Position numbers and translations under genes: made by a program. This document shows, one piece after another, positions 1,110-29,258 of a stretch of 64,000 nt of DNA. Source of the stretch: an uncultured bacterium (GTDB taxonomy: Bacteria; Patescibacteriota; Patescibacteriia; Magasanikbacterales; UBA922). Location of the stretch: NCBI GenBank assembly GCA_937861125.1, contig CALMAY010000038.1:27942-91941 (forward strand). The letters run 5' to 3'. The notes under the pieces are model-generated. The model saw nothing but the letters and a program-made list of their open reading frames with translations. It ran no database searches and was not told the DNA's origin. Within the stretch, counting starts at the first letter, position 1. Each line of letters opens with the position of its first letter.

Positions 1110-2315
1110 TTAGTATTCATAAATATGCCAATTCGGATCCGGTGTAATCGTATCCCATGATGAAAAATCATGTTTCTGTGCATGTGCATAGCCTGCTACT
1201 GCGATCATGGCTGCATTGTCCATCGAGTATTCGCGAGGACAGGTGAGAAACAAAATATCTAATTTCAAATTACTAATTTCTAATGACAACGTTTCACGAA
1301 GTTTTTGGTTAGCACTCACACCACCAGCGAGGATGACAGTCTTTGGGTTATATTGTTTGATTGCTCTGAGTGTTTTTTGGGTGAGGACATCGACGATGGC
1401 GGTTTCAAAACTGGCACAGAAATCTTCTTTGGTTACGCCCACTACGTCATTCTGAGCGGAGCGAGCCTGAGGTGAGCGGAGTCGAAGAATCCCGAGCATT
1501 TGTCGTATGAAGCTGGGATCTTTCGACTTCACTTCACTTCGTTGCGTTTCGCTCAAGATGACGTGATCGCGCAGCCAGTAGAGTGCCGATGTCTTGAGTC
1601 CTGCAAAACTAAAATCATAGTTTGGCTCTTTGAGCATCGGACGTGGAAACGGTATCGCATCTGTGCGTCCAGTTTTTGCGAGTGCAGAAATTTTTGGTCC
1701 ACCAGGATATTCGAGATCAAGGAGTTTGGCGACTTTATCAAAGCACTCTCCGGCTGCATCGTCGCGCGTCTTGCCGATGAGTTCGTAGACACCATGGTCT
1801 TTCATCAGGATGAGTTCGGTATGTCCACCACTGACAATCAAACAGAGCGTTGGAAATTTTAGATTTGTGATTTCAGATTTTAGATTACCTTTTTGTTCGT
1901 TGAGTAATACTGAGTAAATGTGGCCTTCTATGTGGTTTACACGAATAAGCGGAACATTCCATAGATACGAAAGTGTCTTGGCAGTCTCAACACCAACAAG
2001 TAACCCAGTCAAAAGTCCTGGTCCAGCCGTCACCGCAATAGCATCTGGTACAAATGGTGTACTTTTGGCTTCGCACTTTTGGCTTCGAACTTCACCCAAT
2101 ACTTCCTCAATCACCGGCATAATATTCTCCGCATGTTTGCGCCCAGCAAGTTCTGGAACCACGCCACCGTATGCTTTGTGAATATCAATCTGGCTCGCAG
2201 TTTTTTGTGCTACTACTTCCGCTGTGCCATCTGCGTGAAATGCTAACACAGCGGCGCTAGTGTCGTCGCAGGATGATTCGATGCCGAGGATATAGTAGGG
2301 TGCTTTATTGATCAT
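1110..2315 (-). CDS. tsaD: tRNA N6-adenosine threonylcarbamoyltransferase TsaD (Kae1/YgjD family).
   Basis: N-terminal YILGIESSCDDTSAAV, GPGLLTGLLVG and AGGVSAN motifs are typical of TsaD. Start moved to the internal Met (MINKAPYY), which overlaps the upstream stop by about 4 nt. Carries a roughly 40-aa insertion relative to E. coli TsaD. Confidence 0.9.
   Translation of the reverse strand: MINKAPYYILGIESSCDDTSAAVLAFHADGTAEVVAQKTASQIDIHKAYGGVVPELAGRKHAENIMPVIEEVLGEVRSQKCEAKSTPFVPDAIAVTAGPGLLTGLLVGVETAKTLSYLWNVPLIRVNHIEGHIYSVLLNEQKGNLKSEITNLKFPTLCLIVSGGHTELILMKDHGVYELIGKTRDDAAGECFDKVAKLLDLEYPGGPKISALAKTGRTDAIPFPRPMLKEPNYDFSFAGLKTSALYWLRDHVILSETQRSEVKSKDPSFIRQMLGILRLRSPQARSAQNDVVGVTKEDFCASFETAIVDVLTQKTLRAIKQYNPKTVILAGGVSANQKLRETLSLEISNLKLDILFLTCPREYSMDNAAMIAVAGYAHAQKHDFSSWDTITPDPNWHIYEY
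1444..1564. repeat. Imperfect-palindrome element of about 121 bp inserted in frame inside tsaD (MITE/RPE-like).
   Basis: Terminal inverted repeats ACGTCATTCTGAGCG and CGCTCAAGATGACGT (13/15 complementary). Inner arms GAGTCGAAGAATCCCGAGC and GCTGGGATCTTTCGACTTC are also near-complementary. The tsaD ORF stays open through it. Confidence 0.5.
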
Positions 2316-2821
2316 ATCGTATAGAGATAGAGTGTCGGTTGCTTCTCCCGTTTGATCACCTCTGTTGGTACCCACTGTGGGAGTGGCCAAACATAGGAGA
2401 GTACTATACTGCCAGGTTTGAGCTCTTTTTTCAACTTCTCCATAAGTTTGGGAAACATCTCGGGCATGAGGAAAAAATAGACGTGTGTGGTGTCAGAGAG
2501 ATCGGTGTGCCAGAGATTTTTGTATCTGATCTGTACTCGACTGCGTGCAGGTGAAAACAGTCGTCGTATGTGTGCGATGATGTAGGGGAGGAGAGAGATC
2601 TCTAGTCCTGTGGCACGAGCACCTCGCTCTGCGGCAGCGATAGTGAGTCGTCCGTCACCACAACCGATATCACAAAAGACAGAATCTTTGTTTAGTTTTA
2701 GTGCGTCAATAATTGCTGATACATCATCTTTGCGTGTTGGTACCCATGGCGCGCCCTTGTATCCAGCATAGGCGAAGGTGCCAAAGATAGCGAGGAGGAT
2801 GGTAATGGTAAAAAGTTCCAT
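2312..2821 (-). CDS. Class I SAM-dependent methyltransferase with an N-terminal transmembrane helix.
   Basis: DIGCGDGRL glycine-rich SAM-binding motif; hydrophobic N-terminus. Confidence 0.6.
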   Translation of the reverse strand: MELFTITILLAIFGTFAYAGYKGAPWVPTRKDDVSAIIDALKLNKDSVFCDIGCGDGRLTIAAAERGARATGLEISLLPYIIAHIRRLFSPARSRVQIRYKNLWHTDLSDTTHVYFFLMPEMFPKLMEKLKKELKPGSIVLSYVWPLPQWVPTEVIKREKQPTLYLYTI

Positions 2822-2824
2822 ATA

Positions 2825-3673
2825 TTATCGTTGAAATAGTGACCACATGGTAGAGAGTATCTGCTGCGCAGTGTCTAGTTTGTTTTGACGATGGAGTTCT
2901 GCGGCAAAACGAACACCGCGATAACTCAGTGGTGTTGAGATAATTTCCATGTAGTGTGGGTCATGTGCAAATTCTTTTTTTGCAAAATCCCAACACGCAT
3001 ATGCTTCATCGATATTGTCTGCCTGCCCAACCATCTGGAGTGTGTAGTACACAATGTCATAATATCTAAATGACCAACCACTCCATCCGCTGTCCACAAG
3101 TGTCAGTCTTCCTGTCTGCTTGTCTTTTGCTATATGCCATGGGACGAGATCGTGGTGCTGAAATGCACGAGTATCAAAATGTCGCTTGAGATATGTGTGG
3201 AGCTGTTCTGCTTGTGTCTGAGTGATAAGCGTGTGTTCCAAAAGGTACGTCACATCTGTCTCAAAACGCGGCCAATTGAGCTGACGTCTCTCGTCGCTAT
3301 CATCTCTGATCTCTGTTGGAATATCACTGTAGGGGATGTCTAGACACCATTTCAAAAACGTAAACATTTCCTGTCTGTAACTCTCGAATGCTTGCGCATC
3401 TGCTGCCGTCTGTATGTCCGCTGCGAGCCAGTCATGTGTGGTGCTGATATCGGGGTAGACGAGAGAGGTGCCATCAAATGTAGGCAGGAGAAAATCAAAT
3501 CCCACCTCTTTCCCTTGGGTGTAGTGGTAGAGAAATGTTTGGTTGTGAAACTCGCGGGTGTTTTCTACAATACCTGCCGCTGTCTTGGCGTGTTTTACAA
3601 ATGTCGGTGCGTCACCTGAAAGGTTGCGGAATATATGTATATTGGCTGTTTCTTTGATCGTGTGGTATTCCAT
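2825..3673 (-). CDS. Phosphotransferase-family protein (APH / choline-kinase-like kinase fold).
   Basis: HHDLVPWHI (HxDxxxxN-like catalytic loop) followed by LVDSGWSGW (DFG-equivalent). Confidence 0.5.
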   Translation of the reverse strand: MEYHTIKETANIHIFRNLSGDAPTFVKHAKTAAGIVENTREFHNQTFLYHYTQGKEVGFDFLLPTFDGTSLVYPDISTTHDWLAADIQTAADAQAFESYRQEMFTFLKWCLDIPYSDIPTEIRDDSDERRQLNWPRFETDVTYLLEHTLITQTQAEQLHTYLKRHFDTRAFQHHDLVPWHIAKDKQTGRLTLVDSGWSGWSFRYYDIVYYTLQMVGQADNIDEAYACWDFAKKEFAHDPHYMEIISTPLSYRGVRFAAELHRQNKLDTAQQILSTMWSLFQR

Positions 3674-3736
3674 AGGAGGGGGTTACTATAGTCTACATCA
3701 TAACAAAAAAAAGACCTCATGTATATGAGATCTTTT

Positions 3737-3811
3737 TGGTAGCGCCAAGGGGAATCGAACCCCTGTTCTCAGGATGAAAACCTAATGTCCTAACCACTAG
3801 ACGATGGCGCC
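3737..3811 (-). tRNA. tRNA-Glu (anticodon TTC).
   Basis: Cloverleaf folds by hand: acceptor GGCGCCA, D arm GTC/GAC, anticodon stem TTAGG/CCTGA, loop TTTTCAT, T arm CAGGGGTTCGATTCCCCTT, 3' CCA encoded. Confidence 0.9.
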
Positions 3812-3818
3812 ATGTGCA

Positions 3819-4064
3819 TTATTCAAAAATGCGTCTGTATAATTTTTCTTTTTCACTACTGTTGGTTTTGAGCTGATACTCTCTTTTTCGTGCAAGCGTT
3901 CCTGATACGTATGCTTCGTAGTAGACGAGTTGGTATGGAATTTTTGAACGAATTGATTTGGTTTTACCACTATTGTGTTCCACAAGTCTTTTTCGTAGGT
4001 CTTCAGTGTATCCGATATAGGTGGTTTTGTCTATAGTGGATTGTAAAACGTATGTATAAAACAT
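3819..4064 (-). CDS. GIY-YIG nuclease-domain protein, 81 aa, URI/COG2827-like.
   Basis: YTYVLQS...YIGYTEDLRKRLVEHN matches the GIY-YIG catalytic core. Lies between a complete tRNA-Glu and a duplicated tRNA-Glu 5' half. Confidence 0.8.
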   Translation of the reverse strand: MFYTYVLQSTIDKTTYIGYTEDLRKRLVEHNSGKTKSIRSKIPYQLVYYEAYVSGTLARKREYQLKTNSSEKEKLYRRIFE

Positions 4065-4105
4065 AGTCTTGTCAAGGATGCCACCCTACGGGTGGTCACC
4101 CGCGA

Positions 4106-4144
4106 GGGTGAAAAACCTAATGTCCTAACCACTAGACGATGGCG
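4106..4144 (-). pseudogene. Partial duplicate of tRNA-Glu (5' half through the anticodon loop).
   Basis: 39 nt identical to 3776-3814 (gaaaacctaatgtcctaaccactagacgatggcgccatg) with one extra A. Continues into two GC hairpins (CCACCC-TAC-GGGTGG, TCACCC-GCGA-GGGTGA) instead of a T arm. Confidence 0.7.
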
Positions 4145-4147
4145 CCA

Positions 4148-4413
4148 TGAGTTGAATTGTGAAAACAGTGACAGTATAACTGGTTTTTGGTCGTTCGTCA
4201 ACCCCCTTGACAGATATAGAGATATCCTGTATTCTATCCTCATAACCACAGACAGTAGCTTCCGCCCAAAGCGGATTAAATACGCTACCGAGGTGAATCT
4301 ACTCTCCCTATACATAGGGGATTTGGTCGAAGATTTATCGTTTTACTGTGGTTTTGCCACGGTTTTTTATTTCCCTGTATTTCAGGCAAATAGACCGTTG
4401 TTAAATACTTTCT
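4148..4413 (+). promoter_or_regulatory. Untranslated region upstream of rplJ; possible L10 autoregulatory leader.
   Basis: About 265 nt of non-coding sequence sits directly upstream of rplJ, as in L10-leader operons. Structure not verified. Confidence 0.25.
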
Positions 4414-4938
4414 ATGGCAAAAACACGTGCACAAAAAGAACAAGCAGCAGTGGTGCTCGAACAAACCATGAAAAAAGCCAAAGGCATTGTCTTTGTCAAT
4501 TACCAAGGTTTGACGATTCCACAGACTGATGAGTTGCGTAAAGCATGTCGTGAAAACGACGCGGTGTTTATCGCAAGTAAAAAGACATTGGTGCGTATGG
4601 CACTTGCCAACATTGGCAGTACTGTCGACACCAAATCTTTTGATGGTTCTGTGGCTGTGATTGCAGGTATGAGTGATGAAGTTACTGCGGCTAAAATTGC
4701 AGGTGACTTCGCCAAAAAGAATGACAAACTTGTCTTCTTTGGTGGTGTCCTCGAAGGATCACTTATCGACGCACAGCAGGCAAAAGCACTCGCAGCTCTT
4801 CCAAGTAAGCAACAGCTTCTTGGTCAGCTGGTTGGAACATTGAACGCTCCAGTATCTGGATTTGTCAACGTTCTCGCTGGCAACATCCGTGGATTGGTCA
4901 CAGTCCTCGATGCAGTCAAGAGTCAGAAAGCAGCATAA
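4414..4938 (+). CDS. rplJ: 50S ribosomal protein L10.
   Basis: Typical L10 sequence; immediately followed by L7/L12. Confidence 0.95.
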   Translation: MAKTRAQKEQAAVVLEQTMKKAKGIVFVNYQGLTIPQTDELRKACRENDAVFIASKKTLVRMALANIGSTVDTKSFDGSVAVIAGMSDEVTAAKIAGDFAKKNDKLVFFGGVLEGSLIDAQQAKALAALPSKQQLLGQLVGTLNAPVSGFVNVLAGNIRGLVTVLDAVKSQKAA

Positions 4939-4980
4939 CTTGTTTACTTTTCAAATTATTAACTTGTAATTCAAAAATAT

Positions 4981-5376
4981 ATGTCAGACGTAGTCGTACC
5001 AGAGAAGTTTGCTTCTCTTGTCTCTGAAATCGAAAAGATGTCAGTACTTGATCTCTCAGAGCTCGTAAAAGTGCTTGAAGAGAAATTTGGTGTATCAGCA
5101 GCAGCTCCAGCCATGATGATGGCAGCTCCAGCAGCAGGTGCAGCAGCTCCAGCAGCAGAAGAGAAATCTTCATTTACTGTTGAGCTCACTGAAGCAGGTG
5201 ACAACAAAATCAATGTCATCAAAGCAGTAAAAGAAATCACAGGTCTTGGACTTGCTGATGCAAAAGCTCTCGTTGATGGTGCTCCAAAAGCAGTTAAAGA
5301 AGGCGTAGCAAAAGCAGACGCTGAAGAAATGAAAAAGAAAATCGAAGAAGCAGGTGGTAAAGTCACCTTGAAATAA
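4981..5376 (+). CDS. rplL: 50S ribosomal protein L7/L12.
   Basis: N-terminal dimerisation helix, Ala/Pro hinge ([15 protein letters not shown]) and C-terminal domain ([22 protein letters not shown]). Confidence 0.95.
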
Positions 5377-5398
5377 CACGCAGTGTTATTTCAAGAGT

Positions 5399-5443
5399 GA
5401 TCCTGAGCGAAATCCCGCCGTGGCGGGATGTAGTCGAAGGATC
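5399..5443 (+). other. Nested GC-rich hairpin after rplL with no U-tract.
   Basis: Outer stem GATCCT/AGGATC, inner stem ATCCCGCC-GTG-GGCGGGAT. Shares CTGAGCG, GTCGAAG and ATCCCG motifs with the tsaD element. Confidence 0.35.
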
Positions 5444-5461
5444 TCTCATTCTCTAGATAAT

Positions 5462-5493
5462 AAAAACCCTGTACCTATGGTACAGGGTTTTTG
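5462..5493 (+). terminator. Rho-independent terminator of rplJL.
   Basis: AAAAACCCTGTACC-TAT-GGTACAGGGTTTTT: perfect 9-bp stem with flanking A and T tracts. Confidence 0.8.
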
Positions 5494-5519
5494 TATCGTC
5501 ATGAGCCTTGTGAGCATTC

Positions 5520-5555
5520 TAAGCCTCCTGAGCATTTTAATCCTTTTAAGCCTTA
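5520..5555. repeat. Short dispersed intergenic motif, copy 1.
   Basis: TAAGCCTCCTGAGCATTTTAATCCTTTTAAGCCTTA; about 27/32 identical to 20413-20444. Confidence 0.45.
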
Positions 5556-7745
5556 TAATGAAAAAGAGTACACCACATTGGAATCCAAAATGTACACAGT
5601 TTTGTTTTTTTCATCCACACTCATGCCTGTTGGATTTTTCCACTCTGCTGCGGTATATTGTTTGACCAGTTTTCCTGTCTTGTCTAGTACAACAATACGT
5701 TTATTGGTTGGCTCTAAAATGTAGAGATAGTTGACGTCAGTGTAGGTAAATAGTTCTGTTGGATTGCTCAATGCTGGGTCAAGTCCGGTAATAGAAAATG
5801 CTTCTTCAACTCCTGCAACAAATTTTTTGATTTCTCCTGATGCCGTGAGTATATAGACATCACCATCAATAGCAATCGAGACTGCGTCAGCTAGTGTAGA
5901 TCCTTCGCGCTGTGATTGGATCCATGGCGTGCCTTTGTCATAGCCTGTGGCAGTTGGGTTATGTTTATAGATTTGATTATTTTTTGCGTCTAGTATGTAG
6001 GCTCTGCGGTTGTATAGCGCGATGTCATTTGGTGCTGCATCTGTTGTCGGATAGACGATGGTTTTTTGTGAAATGGTTTGGTTGGTTGGATCAAGTGTGC
6101 CGATACTTTGTGCATCTCCGAGGAAAACAATTGTATCATTTTCTTTTGGTGTGTTGGCACGTAAGAGTGGGGGGAGTGAAGAATGATTGCGTGTATCCAC
6201 TGACCCGCCTACTATTGGTAATACATAATGTGTTGAGTCATTGGTACCATATGCAATGAGGGTATTTTGGATACGAGCGAGGCGGGTAGGGGTGGCTGGT
6301 TTTTCTGCTGTACTTGCAATGGTAGCAAGTACAGTAGGGGAAACGATAGTAATATTACGGACTTGATCCAAAAGAATGGCGATAGAATTGAGAAAAGATT
6401 GGCGTGTCTGTCTTTGTTCGTCTGTATCAGTAGGAAGTTCTTTTGCCTTTGTTTGTGCTGTTGTCAGCAAATTGAGCGCACCGCTTCGATCGTTGTATGT
6501 AAACTGTGCTTGTGCTTTTTCATAGGTACTTTGGATGTCACGTATCGAGAGGGTGTATGCTTGTTTTTGTGCTACTTGTTTTTTGTTGGCACTATAGATG
6601 ACTATGCTACTGATAAATATAGTAATAGCGAGTATGGTCCCAATAAGCAGTACTTTACTGATAAGTGGAAGATGGACAAATGATCGTTTTTTCCCCTCAA
6701 TGCTTCTCGTGAGTGTGTGAATAATTTCAGTTCGTCTATTCTTTTGATTTGTAATCAAAAACCAGACGATGACAATAAGTTCTTTGATACCTACCAAGAT
6801 TCGTTCTAATAGCGCCAGCAACATGCTTGAGGCGGTCAAAAGGACGGTACCAATACCACGTAACAAAGAGACGATAAAGGGAACCGTTGTTGTATCTGGT
6901 TCTACTGAGAGTTGTGTGTTTGTTGGTGATATTGGCTGTTGCGGATGAAATGAAAAGAGACTTTTTGCACTTTGAAGCAGTGATGGGTTGAGTGTTTCTG
7001 CTGTGTTGTCCTGTGTTTCTACAAGTTCATTAATAGAGTCTCCTTTTTGTTTGAGATGAGGTGGAATTTTTCCTGTTTTTGGTAAATCGTGTACAGAGAT
7101 AATTTTGGATACAATACCACCAAATGAGATGTCACTACGTAGGTTGGCTAGGACACGCTGGAGATGGGTAGATCCGCTCATTACATCGCGAGCAGTAATA
7201 ATTTTTTGGATTCTATCTTCTGAAAAATAACGCCCAACAGATGGTGTACCAACAAAAAAGTAATCGTGCATGTGTATACTCCCAGAGAGGACAGAAGAAA
7301 ATAGTTGTGTGGGTGTATCATCTGCTTCATTGATAATGGAGAGGTGTTTGTATTCTTGTTTGTGTTGGTAAAATACGTATGCAATCGGAGCGCCGTGATA
7401 CGATAATAAGATAGTACCACCAATCATCACACCTACAACCGCATCTACCGTTCCATCTGAAAGCATGTGGTGACTTTTACGGTTCATCTGTTCAAGGATG
7501 TGTTCAAATAGTATTTCAGGGTTATCAGTATCTTCACTGTAGTATCGGGATTCTATATCATCGATACATTGTTGTAATTCTTCAATTTGTTCTGTGGTTC
7601 CACCCGTAATTTCAATCAATGCAAATAATGAACCTTTTGGTATTTCTGTAGCAGTGGATGGTTCACTAATATGAAGCAAAACATGAGACGTTTTTCGATT
7701 GCGTCCTTCAACAAAAAATTCTTGAATTTGTGGAAACCCAGACAT
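5553..7745 (-). CDS. Large membrane-anchored hypothetical protein, 730 aa. Possible PP2C-like N-terminal domain, a central transmembrane segment, and C-terminal beta-propeller-like repeats.
   Basis: Long ORF with hydrophobic helices near residues 300 and 360. Repeated YILD/VYIL motifs at the C-terminus. The PP2C-like call (DAVVGVMIGG...HGAPIAYVF) is weak. Confidence 0.55.
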   Translation of the reverse strand: MSGFPQIQEFFVEGRNRKTSHVLLHISEPSTATEIPKGSLFALIEITGGTTEQIEELQQCIDDIESRYYSEDTDNPEILFEHILEQMNRKSHHMLSDGTVDAVVGVMIGGTILLSYHGAPIAYVFYQHKQEYKHLSIINEADDTPTQLFSSVLSGSIHMHDYFFVGTPSVGRYFSEDRIQKIITARDVMSGSTHLQRVLANLRSDISFGGIVSKIISVHDLPKTGKIPPHLKQKGDSINELVETQDNTAETLNPSLLQSAKSLFSFHPQQPISPTNTQLSVEPDTTTVPFIVSLLRGIGTVLLTASSMLLALLERILVGIKELIVIVWFLITNQKNRRTEIIHTLTRSIEGKKRSFVHLPLISKVLLIGTILAITIFISSIVIYSANKKQVAQKQAYTLSIRDIQSTYEKAQAQFTYNDRSGALNLLTTAQTKAKELPTDTDEQRQTRQSFLNSIAILLDQVRNITIVSPTVLATIASTAEKPATPTRLARIQNTLIAYGTNDSTHYVLPIVGGSVDTRNHSSLPPLLRANTPKENDTIVFLGDAQSIGTLDPTNQTISQKTIVYPTTDAAPNDIALYNRRAYILDAKNNQIYKHNPTATGYDKGTPWIQSQREGSTLADAVSIAIDGDVYILTASGEIKKFVAGVEEAFSITGLDPALSNPTELFTYTDVNYLYILEPTNKRIVVLDKTGKLVKQYTAAEWKNPTGMSVDEKNKTVYILDSNVVYSFSL

Positions 7746-17935: not shown

Positions 17936-18748
17936 TTATAAAAATAAAAGCAAACTTCCGGCCATCAACATCATTCCAGAAATGAGCCCATAAAGAACAA
18001 TGTGGTGTTCACCAAATTCTTCGGCTGCAGGGATAAGTTCGTCGAGTGAAATATATACCATAATTCCTGCAACACCGGCAAAAATAATACCAAACAGACT
18101 TTCACTAAAAATGTTGCGGAGCAAAAAGAATCCAATAGCCGCGCCAACTGGTTCAGAGAGTCCAGACAAAAAAGACCAAGTAAATGCTTGTACTCGGCTT
18201 TTGGTCGCATAGTATATTGGGATAGCGACAGCAATTCCTTCTGGAATATTGTGAATCGCAATAGCGACGGCAATACTGATACCAAGAAATGGATCGGCAA
18301 TAGCTGCCATAAATGTTGCAAGACCTTCTGGAAAATTGTGAATACCAATAGCAATCGCAGAAAACATGCCCATTCGGTAGAGGTGGTGTGTTTTTGGTTT
18401 TGTGGGATGAGTACCAAGTTCGGTAATCGTATTGAGCTCATCAGGGGTATCTGAGATAGGAACGAGTTTATCAATCAATGCTGCAAGTGCAATCCCACCA
18501 AAAAAAGCAAGAGTTGTGTACAGGTATCCAAGTGCATCGCCATGTACTTCGACGAGAGATATACGTGCTTTTTGAAATATTTCAATAAATGAAACATACA
18601 ACATGACCCCAGCAGAGAAACCAAGTGAAAGGGCGAGAAAGCGATGGCTAAATTGTTTTGAGTATATCGCAATAAGACTTCCGATACCCGTAGAGAGACC
18701 AGCAAGTGCTGTAAGTCCAAAGGCAGTAAGAACGGCATGTGTATCCAT
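17936..18748 (-). CDS. zupT: ZIP-family zinc transporter.
   Basis: Eight transmembrane helices with HNFPEG / HNIPEG metal-binding motifs. Confidence 0.9.
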   Translation of the reverse strand: MDTHAVLTAFGLTALAGLSTGIGSLIAIYSKQFSHRFLALSLGFSAGVMLYVSFIEIFQKARISLVEVHGDALGYLYTTLAFFGGIALAALIDKLVPISDTPDELNTITELGTHPTKPKTHHLYRMGMFSAIAIGIHNFPEGLATFMAAIADPFLGISIAVAIAIHNIPEGIAVAIPIYYATKSRVQAFTWSFLSGLSEPVGAAIGFFLLRNIFSESLFGIIFAGVAGIMVYISLDELIPAAEEFGEHHIVLYGLISGMMLMAGSLLLFL

Positions 18749-18779
18749 AGTATGTCTATACTACCTGTATGCGAGGAGA

Positions 18780-18976
18780 AAATCAAGCCTCTATCTTGAC
18801 TTTTTTCGCTACATTGAGTACTATGAATGTATTCATGATGACGCAGGGTGGCACCTGCCGAGTGAATAGATGTTTCAAGAGTGTCTCGATCTGTATCGAG
18901 AAACTCGGGTGGAACCTCCCTTCGACGCACTTTGTTTGCTCAGGGACCCGAGACAGTTTGTAGCTGTCTTTTTTTA
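18780..18976 (+). promoter_or_regulatory. Candidate T-box leader with intrinsic terminator upstream of glyQS.
   Basis: Two T-box-like sequences, AGGGTGGCACC at 18846 and CGGGTGGAACC at 18906. The second has UGGA, which suits the tRNA-Gly discriminator U. Terminator AGACAG-tttgtag-CTGTCT plus T8 at 18951-18976. Confidence 0.35.
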
Positions 18977-18999
18977 TTTGTTTTCTTACGTTATACTTA

Positions 19000-20403
19000 G
19001 TGTATATGACAAACACAACACTCGACACAATTGTGTCACTGGCGAAGCGTCGTGGGTTTATCTTTCCGGGGAGTGAGATCTATGGTGGTCTGGCCAACTC
19101 TTGGGATTACGGTCCACTTGGAGTTGAACTCAAAAACAATATCAAAAAACTTTGGTGGCAGACCTTTGTGCGTGAGCGCATGGATATGGTCGGACTTGAT
19201 GCTGCGATCCTCATGAATCCTCGTGTGTGGGAAGCGTCTGGACATGTGGGGTCATTTACTGATCCGTTGGTTGATTGTAAAGAATGCAAACAGCGTTTTC
19301 GTGGTGATAAATTACTCGAAGAAAAATTGTTTGTTGAAGAGGTGGCTGGAATCAAACTCGAGGATGTAAGTCCACGTCTGATGAGCGAATCCGTACCGTG
19401 TCCAGCGTGTGGCAAAGTAAACTGGACCGAAGCAAAACGATTCAACCTCATGTTCAAAACAAAGCAAGGTGTTATTGACGGTGAGGGTGCTGATATCTAT
19501 CTGCGTCCTGAGACTGCACAGGGTATTTTTGTGAATTTCAAAAATGTCTCTCAAACACAGCGTCTGAAATTGCCATTTGGAATCGCACAGATCGGAAAAG
19601 CATTTCGCAATGAAATTACTCCAGGAAACTTTACGTTCCGTACTCGCGAATTTGAACAAATGGAAATTGAGTATTTCTTTGATCCAGAAAACACTGATTG
19701 GAAAGTGGTATATGAAAATTGGAAAAATGATACCTGGCAATTTTTGACCAAGACACTTGGGATTCGTGAAGAAAATCTTCGCTTCCGTGATCACGATCCA
19801 GATGAGTTGTCGCATTATTCTAAAGGTACAGTAGATGTGGAGTACAAATTCCCATGGGGTTGGGGAGAGCTCTGTGCTGCGGCAGCGTATCGCACTGATT
19901 TTGATCTCAAACAGCACATGGAATTTAGTGGTGAGGATTTGCGCTATACTGATCCACAGGATCCTCAGCGTAAATTTATTCCACATGTCATGGAGCCATC
20001 ATTTGGGTGTGATCGTGTGGCGCTTGCAGTACTCCTTGATTCATATCAGGAGGAAGCGGCTCAGGATGAAGATGGAGAAGTGCGTGTGATGCTTGGTCTC
20101 GCGAAACGTGTTGCGCCATATCAAATTGCAGTATTACCTCTTTCAAAAAAAGATGAACTCTCAGGAGTATCTCGTGAGATTGTGCAGACACTGGCAAAGC
20201 AGTTTGCAGTCACATACGATGAAACACAGTCAATCGGAAAACGCTATCGCCGTCAGGATGAGATTGGTACACCGTTTTGTGTGACGATAGATTTTGACAC
20301 ACTCAATGACAATGCTGTAACAGTGCGTGAACGTGATAGTATGAAACAGGAACGTATTGCGATTGCAGAGTTGGTTTCTTATTTACAAAAACAGATCGTA
20401 TAG
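19000..20403 (+). CDS. glyQS: Glycyl-tRNA synthetase (alpha2, GlyQS type).
   Basis: Class II aaRS motifs and the GlyRS-specific N-terminus ([14 protein letters not shown]). First ATG at 19006. Confidence 0.95.
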
Positions 20404-29156: not shown

Positions 29157-29184
29157 AATATGGGCTCGTACTGAGCTCGTCGAA

Positions 29185-29258
29185 GGGCGCTTCGTATAAT
29201 GGTAGTACTACGGTCTCCAAAACCGTATGCGTAGGTTCGATTCCTACAGCGCCTGCCA
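29185..29258 (+). tRNA. tRNA-Trp (anticodon CCA).
   Basis: Acceptor GGGCGCT/AGCGCCT, anticodon arm ACGGT-CTCCAAA-ACCGT, T arm GTAGGTTCGATTCCTAC, 3' GCCA. Confidence 0.88.

What the first reader, a model, noticed from the sequence alone, without database searches (positions are those of the whole stretch)
1444..1564. In-frame palindromic (MITE/RPE-like) element inserted inside tsaD
A roughly 121-bp segment inside the tsaD coding sequence is an imperfect palindrome. Its termini ACGTCATTCTGAGCG and CGCTCAAGATGACGT are 13/15 complementary. The inner arms GAGTCGAAGAATCCCGAGC and GCTGGGATCTTTCGACTTC are also near-complementary, so the DNA or RNA could fold into one long hairpin. The tsaD reading frame nevertheless stays open. 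The element sits where this TsaD carries about 38 extra residues relative to E. coli TsaD, between the GLKT...LRD and FxxAxVDVL helices. This pattern matches Rickettsia palindromic elements, which insert in frame into essential genes and add a surface loop. Pieces of the same motif (CTGAGCG, GTCGAAG[G/A]ATC, ATCCCG) recur in hairpins after rplL (5399-5443) and upstream of tRNA-Trp (29163-29190), suggesting a small family of palindromic elements in this genome.
Basis: partly seen in the sequence, partly recalled or inferred. Interest (0 to 1): 0.65.

Follow-up and report, generated by a model that had tools for sequence, protein, structure and literature searches.

The report
In-frame palindromic repeat inside tsaD
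A 121-bp hairpin-forming repeat of a family found in many bacterial phyla and some phage contigs sits in frame inside the essential tRNA-modification gene tsaD of a candidate-phyla-radiation bacterium, adding about 40 residues to a variable loop, as Rickettsia palindromic elements do.

Summary
Window 1444-1564 is an imperfect palindrome (RNA fold -51.6 kcal/mol, z -5.1) lying in frame in tsaD (1113-2315, minus strand).

It encodes residues 251-291. In Thermotoga TsaD the matching stretch is 3 residues long. AlphaFold gives it low confidence between two confident helices.

It is not private to this genome. The same termini and inner arms occur in at least 120 stretches from about 15 phyla and in phage contigs, mostly between genes.

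The element is an inverted dimer of two stem-loop units: tag (C/T)GTC, a 5-bp stem starting with AT, and a G/A-rich module. The stem covaries within each arm (94 of 110). This fits the "CGTC-tagged REP" superfamily, which includes Rickettsia RPE-4 and RPE-6 and Neisseria dRS3, but the stem and loop sizes differ.

Relatives 81% identical lack the palindrome. A relative at 77% carries a different family member at the same loop. 19 of 121 homologues carry such inserts, needing at least 13 gains or losses.

Real in-frame copies also sit in recG and a miaB-like gene of other CPR bacteria. No transposase, target-site duplication or Rfam family was found.

Verdict: a REP/RPE-like selfish repeat tolerated in a permissive loop. 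It is a new member of a known kind.

The parts
1444..1564 (.). Whole palindromic element: an inverted dimer of two REP-like units plus a central stem-loop. It lies in frame in tsaD and encodes residues 251-291 (HVILSETQRSEVKSKDPSFIRQMLGILRLRSPQARSAQNDV).
1446..1490 (+). Unit A. Tag (C)GTC; stem ATTCT...AGAAT; loop module GAGCG-GAGCGAGCCTGAGGTGAGCG-GAGTCGA, which contains an internal duplication of TGAGCGGAG; tail CCC.
   Evidence: The unit scan found 3 units in the window against 0.07 expected from shuffles. Loop-module motif.
1518..1562 (-). Unit B, read on the minus (tsaD sense) strand. Tag (C)GTC; stem ATCTT...AAGAT; loop module GAGCGAAACGCAACGAAGTGAAGTGAAGTCGA; tail CCC. Its stem is complementary within the arm but not to unit A's stem.
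1491..1517 (.). Centre of the element. The distal part of the inter-arm stem (CCGAGC / GCTGGG) and the about 14-nt apical loop (ATTTGTCGTATGAA). This is the part that varies between family members.
1110..2315 (-). Host gene tsaD (tRNA N6-adenosine threonylcarbamoyltransferase), 401 aa plus the stop codon, starting at the ATG at 2315.
   Evidence: PF00814, best hit 93% identity; PDB TsaD, E 1e-70; AF2 mean pLDDT 89.6.
5397..5442 (+). Solitary unit of the same family, 21 nt after the rplL stop codon on the rplL strand and upstream of the intrinsic terminator. Tag GTG; stem ATCCT...AGGAT; loop module GAGCGAA + hairpin ATCCCGCC-GTGG-CGGGAT + GTAGTCGA; tail CTC.
   Evidence: (ssDNA -11.3 kcal/mol, z -3.3, folds as predicted).
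18915..18950 (-). Degenerate unit-like relic in an apparently intergenic stretch that overlaps two unverified ORFs (18475-18930 and 18783-19028, minus strand): TCCCT-GAGC-AAACAAAGTGC-GTCGA-AGGGA. It lacks the GTC tag and the AT start.
29172..29185 (+). Loop-module fragment TGAGCTCGTCGAAG abutting the 5' end of tRNA-Trp. It has no outer stem. Weak evidence.

Best explanation
The segment is a non-autonomous, REP/RPE-like palindromic repeat: two inverted stem-loop units joined by a short self-complementary spacer. It inserted into a permissive loop of tsaD and persists because it keeps the reading frame open.

**Anatomy (shown)**
- Each unit has an unpaired tag (C/T)GTC and a 5-bp stem that starts with AT.
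- The stem closes a G/A-rich module (consensus GAGCGAAGCGA, often expanded by an extra hairpin) and is followed by a C-rich tail.
- The two units face each other, so the whole element can also fold into one long hairpin.

**Origin (part shown, part inferred)**
- The family is present in many phyla and in phage contigs. It has amplified recently within one phage contig, so it is or was mobile (shown).
- The mobilising enzyme is unknown and not linked to the copies. Transposition as a single-stranded hairpin by an enzyme acting in trans is inferred by analogy with REP/RAYT and IS200/IS605 elements.

**Why it survives here (part shown, part inferred)**
- Two of the three frames of each arm lack stop codons (read from the sequence).
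- The target is a hypervariable loop between two conserved helices of the TsaD fold (shown).
- So the element is translated as about 40 extra, poorly ordered residues without destroying the enzyme (inferred).
- In compact CPR genomes with little intergenic space, such loops are among the few places an insertion can survive (inferred).
- No function for the host is needed. A side effect on tsaD mRNA stability or translation is possible but not shown.
For: **The hairpin is real.** RNA z -5.1.

**It belongs to a wide family**
- The hits share the inner arm (A/G)AG(T)CGAAGAATC but have variable centres.
- The base before the element is T in 107 of 125 copies and the base after is A in 99 of 125. 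There is no target-site duplication.

**Each arm is its own stem-loop**
- Inner and outer pentamers of the right arm are complementary in 94 of 110 copies: ATCCT/AGGAT 56, ATTCT/AGAAT 34, ATCTT/AAGAT 4.
- Shuffling gives 48 expected and 65 at most. Fisher p = 6e-20.
- The left arm was fixed as ATTCT by the search pattern.
- Further pair types ATTGC/GCAAT, ATTCC/GGAAT, ATCCC/GGGAT and ATCTC/GAGAT occur in TsaD inserts.

**The window holds 3 units** against 0.07 expected.

**The insertion is lineage-specific**
- P0001 (93% identity) has the identical element.
- P0002, P0003, P0004 and P0006 (78-81%) have a non-palindromic loop of a type conserved in 41 homologues.
- P0005 (77%) has a different palindrome, GTCATTGCGAGG...CGCAATGAC, at the same loop.
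- 19 of 121 homologues carry such inserts, needing at least 13 state changes on a neighbour-joining tree.

**The site is a loop in the protein**
- T. maritima TsaD has 3 residues where the query has 250-292.
- AF2 gives pLDDT 49-61 for residues 251-290, between helices 238-251 and 296-322 that lie in blocks scoring 88-98.

**The same family sits in frame in other CPR genes:** recG (L010) and a miaB-like gene (L088), both confirmed by Pfam.

**The inserts are probably translated.** Indels between orthologous inserts are 12 and 18 nt, so in frame.

**The family has been mobile.** A phage-like contig carries 7 co-oriented copies, 6 of them sharing the same centre.

**It fits published classes.** Tag, AT-start stem, head-to-head dimers, intragenic copies and lack of a linked transposase match the CGTC-tagged REP superfamily. 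That superfamily includes RPE-4, RPE-6 and dRS3 (PMC3733652).
Against: - No empty-site allele was found, so the exact junction and the act of insertion are inferred from comparison with relatives whose loop is not alignable.
- The native roughly 20-aa loop core is missing in the insert-bearing proteins. A plain insertion does not explain that.
- Only 64 kb of this genome is available, and it holds just 3 units and 2 relics.
- No mobilising enzyme was identified.
- Nearest-neighbour energies do not support the 5-bp unit stems of the two tsaD arms on their own. That support comes from covariation, which copies related by descent can inflate.
- Orthologous inserts are somewhat better conserved than the rest of the gene (87 vs 77%, 76.5 vs 73%, 96 vs 88%). 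A purely neutral passenger does not predict this.
- Translation of the insert has not been observed.
Confidence: 0.78

Rival explanations
1. The hairpin is a selected cis-regulatory structure of the tsaD transcript or gene. It could act as an RNase III or degradation site, a translational pause or a replication/transcription barrier. It would then be kept for that function rather than as selfish DNA.
For: - The fold is strong.
- Orthologous inserts are more conserved than the gene average.
- Their stem changes are compensatory or wobble: ATCTT/AAGAT to ATCTC/GAGAT, and A to G giving U.G.
- There are no differences in the 121 nt between the window and L001, against 108 in the other 1082 nt.
Against: - The 3' half of the gene is generally little diverged between the window and L001 (12 differences in 503 nt), so zero in the element is not exceptional.
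- The closest relatives at 78-81% identity do without any palindrome.
- Different family members and unrelated repeat-derived peptides occupy the same loop, with at least 13 gains or losses.
- The same sequence occurs between unrelated genes in about 15 phyla and in phage contigs.
- The strand that folds better as RNA is antisense to the host gene in tsaD, recG and miaB.
Confidence: 0.1
2. The segment is an intervening sequence removed before or after translation, such as a hairpin excised from the RNA or a protein-level splice. The mature TsaD would then lack the extra residues.
For: - The element is a self-contained structure with sharply defined conserved ends.
- CPR bacteria are known for intervening sequences in rRNA genes (own knowledge, not tested here).
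Against: - All 19 TsaD inserts and the recG and miaB inserts are stop-free and in frame.
- Indels between orthologues are multiples of three.
- An excised sequence would not need either property.
- No Rfam intron or ribozyme family matches.
- The peptide has no intein-like features (read from the sequence).
Confidence: 0.04
3. The segment is an ordinary lineage-specific protein loop, and its nucleotide palindromy is incidental.
For: - This TsaD loop is hypervariable in length (9 to 60 aa).
- Many homologues carry non-palindromic loops there.
Against: - 0 of 200 shuffles fold as well.
- The 13-nt termini and the inner arms are identical to those of elements lying between genes in unrelated phyla.
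- Six other TsaD lineages have palindromes with the same GTCAT...ATGAC ends at this loop.
Confidence: 0.02

Closest known systems
Rickettsia palindromic elements (RPE), in particular RPE-4 and RPE-6, which Di Nocera et al. 2013 class as CGTC-tagged REPs (PMC3733652)
   Same: - Short palindromic repeats inserted in frame into housekeeping genes of a small, host-dependent genome.
- They are translated as extra segments.
- They carry a CGTC-type terminal tag.
- No linked transposase is known.
   Different: - The host phylum differs (Patescibacteria/CPR).
- Sequence similarity to any RPE consensus was not tested here.
- This family is spread across many phyla and occurs in phage contigs, whereas RPEs are described from Rickettsia.
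CGTC-tagged REP superfamily (families CGTC-1 to CGTC-4; includes Neisseria dRS3)
   Same: - Unpaired tag CGTC, often TGTC.
- Stem whose first two pairs are A-T and T-A.
- Short C-rich tail.
- Mostly head-to-head dimers.
- Some intragenic copies.
- No dedicated transposase found.
   Different: - Described stems are 8-9 bp with 4-5 nt loops.
- Here only 5 Watson-Crick pairs close an 11-nt G/A-rich module, which may continue the stem through G.A pairs and is often expanded by an extra hairpin.
- The dimers enclose a 20-60 nt self-complementary spacer.
- The published consensus figures could not be read, so family-level identity is open.
REPINs (REP doublets forming hairpins), mobilised by RAYT tyrosine transposases
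   Same: - Two inverted REP units separated by a spacer.
- The whole forms a hairpin of about 100 nt.
- Arms are conserved and the centre is variable.
- Solitary units look like remnants.
   Different: - REPINs carry a GTAG tag and flank a RAYT gene in the same genome.
- They are lineage-specific.
- Here the tag is (C/T)GTC, no RAYT was seen near 120 copies, and the arms are nearly identical across phyla.
Bacterial MITEs found inside genes (Coxiella MITEs, enterobacterial RU/ERIC, Neisseria Correia elements)
   Same: Small non-autonomous repeats with inverted ends that can lie in frame and add peptide segments.
   Different: - MITEs have target-site duplications and a parent insertion sequence with the same terminal repeats.
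- Neither was found here.

Membership tests
CGTC-tagged REP superfamily (Di Nocera et al. 2013) | Unpaired terminal tetranucleotide CGTC (TGTC or CCTC variants allowed) | tested here: met
   - The window element has CGTC at both outer ends (ACGTCAT... / ...ATGACGT).
- The family at large has T before GTCAT in 107 of 125 copies and C in 12 of 125.
CGTC-tagged REP superfamily (Di Nocera et al. 2013) | Stem whose first and second positions are complementary A-T / T-A | tested here: met
   - Stems seen: ATTCT/AGAAT, ATCTT/AAGAT, ATCCT/AGGAT, ATTGC/GCAAT, ATTCC/GGAAT, ATCCC/GGGAT.
- 94 of 110 right arms are complementary within the arm.
CGTC-tagged REP superfamily (Di Nocera et al. 2013) | Stem of 8-9 bp and loop of 4-5 nt | tested here: not met
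   - Only 5 Watson-Crick pairs close an 11 to over 40 nt module.
- The consensus unit folds at only -1.9 kcal/mol in the ssDNA model.
- A 9-pair stem is possible only if tandem G.A pairs and a GCGAAGC mini-hairpin are counted. That rests on my own knowledge and was not tested.
CGTC-tagged REP superfamily (Di Nocera et al. 2013) | Short unpaired tail (consensus CCA) after the stem | tested here: inconclusive
   The units are followed by CCC, CTC or CTA. This resembles the published tail but is not identical to it.
CGTC-tagged REP superfamily (Di Nocera et al. 2013) | Mostly head-to-head dimers; no linked transposase | tested here: met
   - All 126 pattern hits are inverted dimers, but the search pattern required that.
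- No GIY-YIG gene was found and no transposase between paired copies.
- No protein family recurs near more than 5 of 120 loci.
Rickettsia palindromic elements (RPE-1 to RPE-8) | Sequence similarity to an RPE consensus | not tested
Only the shared CGTC tag is documented.
Rickettsia palindromic elements (RPE-1 to RPE-8) | Palindromic repeat inserted in frame in genes that still encode the conserved protein | tested here: met
   - tsaD in the window.
- recG in L010 and a miaB-like gene in L088.
REPIN / RAYT system | GTAG tag on each REP unit | tested here: not met
   The tag is (C/T)GTC.
REPIN / RAYT system | A RAYT (Y1/HUH) gene flanked by the repeats in the same genome | not testable with these tools
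   - Only 64 kb of the source genome and 8-kb stretches around other copies are held.
- Nothing recurrent was seen next to 120 copies.
MITE | Target-site duplication flanking the terminal inverted repeats | tested here: not met
   - Beyond T at -1 and A at +1 there is no flank conservation and no direct repeat.
- The window flanks are CCCACT and GATCGC.
MITE | A parent insertion sequence with the same terminal repeats | tested here: not met
   - Genes between paired copies are ordinary housekeeping or transport genes.
- This covers the fetched loci only.
Any Rfam RNA family | A covariance-model match | tested here: not met
   - Nothing at the gathering score in the window or in 18 loci with canonical copies.
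- Only chance-level miRNA matches at E 2-10.

The most novel reading that the evidence does not exclude
The (C/T)GTC-ATnnn...nnnAT hairpin unit may be the recognition site of a mobilising activity that has not been identified. That activity would work across at least 15 phyla and travel on phages.

It would supply the missing engine of the 'orphan' CGTC class of REPs, and so also of some Rickettsia RPEs. Supporting points:
- The arms are nearly identical across phyla.
- The stem covaries within each arm.
- The seven copies in one phage contig are co-oriented.
- In three host genes the better-folding strand is antisense.

The last two points would reflect strand-specific, single-strand transposition. 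On this reading, the recurrent hits in the same TsaD loop of CPR bacteria could be partly targeted rather than only filtered by selection.
Probability: 0.2. Interest if true: 0.75.

Novelty: new member of a known kind. Interest (0 to 1): 0.5.

Why it matters
**In-frame repeats beyond Rickettsia**
- The 'protein-coding palindrome' phenomenon, known from Rickettsia, also operates in candidate-phyla-radiation bacteria. These are another group with small, gene-dense genomes.
- One loop of the universal enzyme TsaD has absorbed such insertions many times independently.
- This explains part of the unexplained extra segments in CPR proteins.
- Annotators and structure predictors should treat such segments as repeat-derived.

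**An unnamed, widely shared repeat family**
- The work points to a repeat family shared almost unchanged by very distant bacteria and by phages, with no known transposase.
- That makes it a concrete starting point for finding how this class of REP-like elements moves.

Tried and rejected
1. **GIY-YIG link.** I recalled from memory that such palindromes accompany small GIY-YIG nuclease genes, and the window has one at 3819-4064. A phmmer search with that protein against all ORFs of 120 element-bearing loci gave 0 hits. Rejected.
2. **Composite transposon.** ORFs between paired copies (L005, L006, L019, L086) are transporters, amidohydrolase-like proteins and similar. Rejected.
3. **A recurrent neighbouring gene.** All-against-all blastp of 2204 nearby ORFs found no family in more than 5 of 120 loci.
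4. **Target-site duplication.** None found.
5. **Rfam.** No family matched.
6. **Literature strings.** The sequence motifs and their peptide translations occur in no relevant paper of the library. Keyword searches for CPR plus palindromic elements found nothing relevant.
7. **Special conservation of the element between the window and L001.** The difference is significant against the whole gene but not against the little-diverged 3' half. Not used as evidence.
8. **RNA-level selection on the mRNA strand.** Sense against antisense fold energies show no consistent advantage for the sense strand.
9. **Metagenome scan for TsaD loci.** It returned only distant homologues (35-48% identity) with few inserts at this loop, so it was of little use.
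10. **The repeat finder on 1350-1650.** It reported no inverted repeat. This is a limit of ungapped extension, not evidence of absence.
Full report
**1. What is in the sequence**

Window 1444-1564 reads ACGTCATTCTGAGCG...CGCTCAAGATGACGT. The two 15-nt ends are 13/15 complementary, and the inner arms are also near-complementary.

- As mRNA-sense RNA, the 131-nt stretch folds into one long hairpin of -51.6 kcal/mol. Shuffles give -33.2 +/- 3.6, so z is -5.1, and none of 200 shuffles does as well.
- As plus-strand ssDNA it gives z -2.8.
- A word-7 blastn finds the element's own reverse complement at E 1.6e-8.
- The repeat finder saw nothing because the arms differ by small indels.

The segment lies inside the minus-strand ORF 1110-2390. 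Its conserved part starts at the ATG at 2315 and encodes a 401-aa TsaD. The frame stays open, and the element encodes residues 251-291.

**2. It is extra relative to other TsaD proteins and sits in a loop**

- Against solved Thermotoga maritima TsaD (6n9a_D, E 1e-70), query residues 9-249 match chain 6-224 and 293-397 match 228-329. So query residues 250-292 replace three residues.
- An AlphaFold2 model built on 121 sequences has mean pLDDT 89.6 and pTM 0.88. Confidence drops to 49-61 over residues 251-290. The flanking helices 238-251 and 296-322 lie in blocks scoring 88-98.
- I could not measure distances to the TsaB or TsaE interfaces, so 'surface loop away from the interfaces' remains an inference.

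**3. The insertion is lineage-specific and coincides with the palindrome**

The best hits are CPR proteins, and some are named Candidatus Magasanikbacteria.

| Homologue | Identity | State of the loop |
|---|---|---|
| P0001 | 93% | The identical element |
| P0002, P0003, P0004, P0006 | 78-81% | 30-aa loop DNKLSISNGFTSFLPNLLGHFGMSTPAITRED; its DNA does not fold (-12.2 kcal/mol, z -0.2) |
| P0005 | 77% | A different palindrome, ACGTCATTGCGAGGAGCC...CATCGCAATGACGT (-55.6 kcal/mol) |

The non-palindromic loop type is conserved at the protein level in 41 of 121 homologues. I therefore take it as the native state.

DNA of six more TsaD genes with suspicious loop peptides was fetched (L205-L211). 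All contain palindromes ending (T/C)GTCAT...ATGAC(A/G).

By peptide signature, 19 of 121 homologues carry such an insert. On a neighbour-joining tree of the conserved columns this needs at least 13 gains or losses. Other repeat-like peptides (PPFQGGE, LQRRRLGGG) also occur in this loop. This points to a permissive site rather than targeting by one element.

One thing is not explained by simple insertion. The insert-bearing proteins lack the roughly 20-aa core of the native loop.

**4. The element belongs to a very widely distributed family**

The hosts include:

- Oscillospiraceae and other Clostridia
- Acidobacteriota and Chloroflexota
- Hymenobacter, Pedobacter, Alistipes and Bacteroides
- Verrucomicrobiota, Planctomycetota, Nitrospirota and Armatimonadota
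- Desulfobacterota, Binatus, several Pseudomonadota, Campylobacterota and Elusimicrobiota
- CPR groups: Parcubacteria, Moranbacteria, Uhrbacteria and Saccharibacteria

The 126 copies share more than the searched termini. The consensus is T|GTCATTCTGAGCG [optional extra hairpin] (A/G)AG(T)CGAAGAATC(T/C) ... variable self-complementary centre ... GAT(T/C)CTTCG ... CGCTCAG(A/G)ATGAC|A.

- There is no target-site duplication.
- Most copies lie between genes.
- Of the long ORFs that span a copy, only two are real genes by Pfam. These are recG in a Parcubacteria genome (L010) and a miaB-like methylthiotransferase (L088) in an unnamed 'uncultured bacterium' bin, whose element matches the CPR copies of L010 and L042. 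In both, the element adds 39 in-frame residues between domains.
- The other spanning ORFs that were scanned (seven of eleven) have no Pfam match and look spurious.

**5. Architecture: an inverted dimer of stem-loop units**

In 77 of 126 copies the outer pentamer of the right arm is AGGAT. That does not match the left arm's ATTCT, but it does match the pentamer ATCCT further in on the same arm.

- Overall, 94 of 110 right arms are complementary within the arm: ATCCT/AGGAT 56, ATTCT/AGAAT 34, ATCTT/AAGAT 4.
- Shuffling gives 48 expected and 65 at most. Fisher p = 6e-20.
- The TsaD inserts add ATTGC/GCAAT, ATTCC/GGAAT, ATCCC/GGGAT and ATCTC/GAGAT.
- In the window, one arm has ATTCT/AGAAT and the other ATCTT/AAGAT.

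So each arm is a unit: tag (C/T)GTC, a 5-bp stem beginning AT, a G/A-rich module, then a C-rich tail. The caveat is that related copies are not independent, although six or more pair types argue for repeated compensation.

Nearest-neighbour energies do not by themselves support the short stems of the two tsaD arms. The solitary unit after rplL does fold as predicted, at -11.3 kcal/mol and z -3.3.

A scan for such units finds three in the window against 0.07 expected: the two tsaD arms and 5397-5442. The loop-module motif TGAGC-N1-31-GTCGAAR occurs 6 times against 0.45 expected. This adds relics at 18920-18942 and at 29172-29185.

**6. Comparison with what is known**

Di Nocera et al. 2013 (PMC3733652) defined a CGTC-tagged REP superfamily. 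Its features are:

- a terminal tag CGTC, often TGTC
- stems that start with A-T and T-A
- a short tail
- mostly head-to-head dimers
- intragenic copies in some species
- no dedicated transposase

Neisseria dRS3 and Rickettsia RPE-4 and RPE-6 belong to it. The present units meet the tag, AT-start, dimer and no-transposase criteria. They do not meet the 8-9 bp stem and 4-5 nt loop sizes.

The dimer-with-spacer form resembles REPINs. However, the GTAG tag is absent and no linked RAYT gene was seen. MITE criteria fail on both counts: no target-site duplication and no parent insertion sequence.

No Rfam family matches. No paper in the library contains the motif strings.

**7. Mobility and the missing enzyme**

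- A phage-like contig (L216; terminase and structural genes, all on one strand) carries seven co-oriented copies in 14 kb. Six share the same centre, which indicates recent amplification.
- No GIY-YIG gene, no transposase between paired copies and no recurrent neighbouring protein family was found.
- How the element moves is therefore unknown. Single-strand hairpin transposition by a trans-acting enzyme is an analogy, not a result.

**8. Is the hairpin itself under selection?**

- Orthologous inserts are somewhat better conserved than their genes (87 vs 77%, 76.5 vs 73%, 96 vs 88%).
- Their stem changes are compensatory or wobble, and their indels are 12 and 18 nt.
- Between the window and L001 the element has no differences, but the whole 3' half of the gene is little diverged (12 differences in 503 nt).
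- Sense and antisense RNA folds show no consistent advantage for the mRNA strand. In tsaD, recG and miaB the antisense strand folds better.

I read this as weak evidence for maintenance of the structure and no evidence for a tsaD-specific function.

**9. Verdict**

The element is a REP/RPE-like palindromic repeat, an inverted dimer of (C/T)GTC-tagged units, inserted in frame in a hypervariable TsaD loop of a CPR bacterium.

Its family is not lineage-private. It is spread across phyla and occurs in phage contigs. The phenomenon is of a known kind. What is new:

- the host group
- the recurrence at one loop of a universal enzyme
- the breadth of the family
- the within-arm covariation

Noticed in passing
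window 2061-2092, 1856-1886 and 1254-1284 (all inside tsaD): Three short tandem repeats lie in frame in tsaD: period 14 (ACTTTTGGCTTCGA x2.3) and two of period 7. They encode the extra segments EVRSQKCEAKS, NLKSEITNLKF and EISNLKLD. The second coincides with a low-confidence AF2 block (residues 141-150, pLDDT 59) and with another length-variable site in the alignment.
   Followed up: partly
window 3819-4064 (-) and tRNA at 3740-3811 (-): A small stand-alone GIY-YIG-like ORF (81 aa) lies directly upstream of a tRNA gene on the same strand. I tested it as a possible partner of the palindromes and found no association.
   Followed up: partly
L216 (IMGVR_UViG_3300031555_011079), copies at 712, 1139, 4895, 6434, 11757, 12470, 12610: A phage-like contig (GC 59%, terminase and structural genes all on one strand) carries seven co-oriented copies of the same element family between its genes. 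Six have nearly the same centre.
   Followed up: partly
window tsaD against L001 (gene positions 1-750 against 751-1203): Divergence is mosaic: about 96 differences in the 5' 750 nt but only 12 in the 3' 503 nt. This suggests recombination between close lineages within the gene.
   Followed up: no
TsaD homologues P0022, P0035, P0036, P0079, P0112 and locus L128 (same loop): The same TsaD loop in other CPR and related lineages holds peptides typical of other repeat families (SPPFQGGDQEGV, PPFQGGE, HMWGGQGG, LQRRRLGGG, SPPLLAKERGLGERL). Their DNA was not examined.
   Followed up: no
L010 1528-1640, L088 1406-1518, L042 4680-4790: Three copies (Parcubacteria, an unnamed 'uncultured bacterium' bin, Moranbacteria) share an extra side hairpin (CGTCCGAGTACGGAC or CGTTCGAGTACGAAC) in one arm and a similar centre. 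They lie in different places (recG, a miaB-like gene, one unassigned), so they look like a CPR subfamily that has moved between genes.
   Followed up: partly
window tsaD element, L010 recG, L088 miaB: In all three in-frame insertions the strand that folds much better as RNA (more G.U pairs: -63 vs -49, -54 vs -49, -63 vs -48 kcal/mol) is antisense to the host gene. This could reflect strand-specific insertion or selection against strong mRNA hairpins. Three cases are too few to tell.
   Followed up: partly
L006 (Acidobacteriota), about 2500-6600: The same 8-kb stretch holds several other palindrome families. They show up as spurious peptides (AEILRCAQDD, CHPERSEGS, FAGMT, HFRGNDA) next to the searched family. 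Such genomes appear to carry many related (C/T)GTCAT-type repeats.
   Followed up: no
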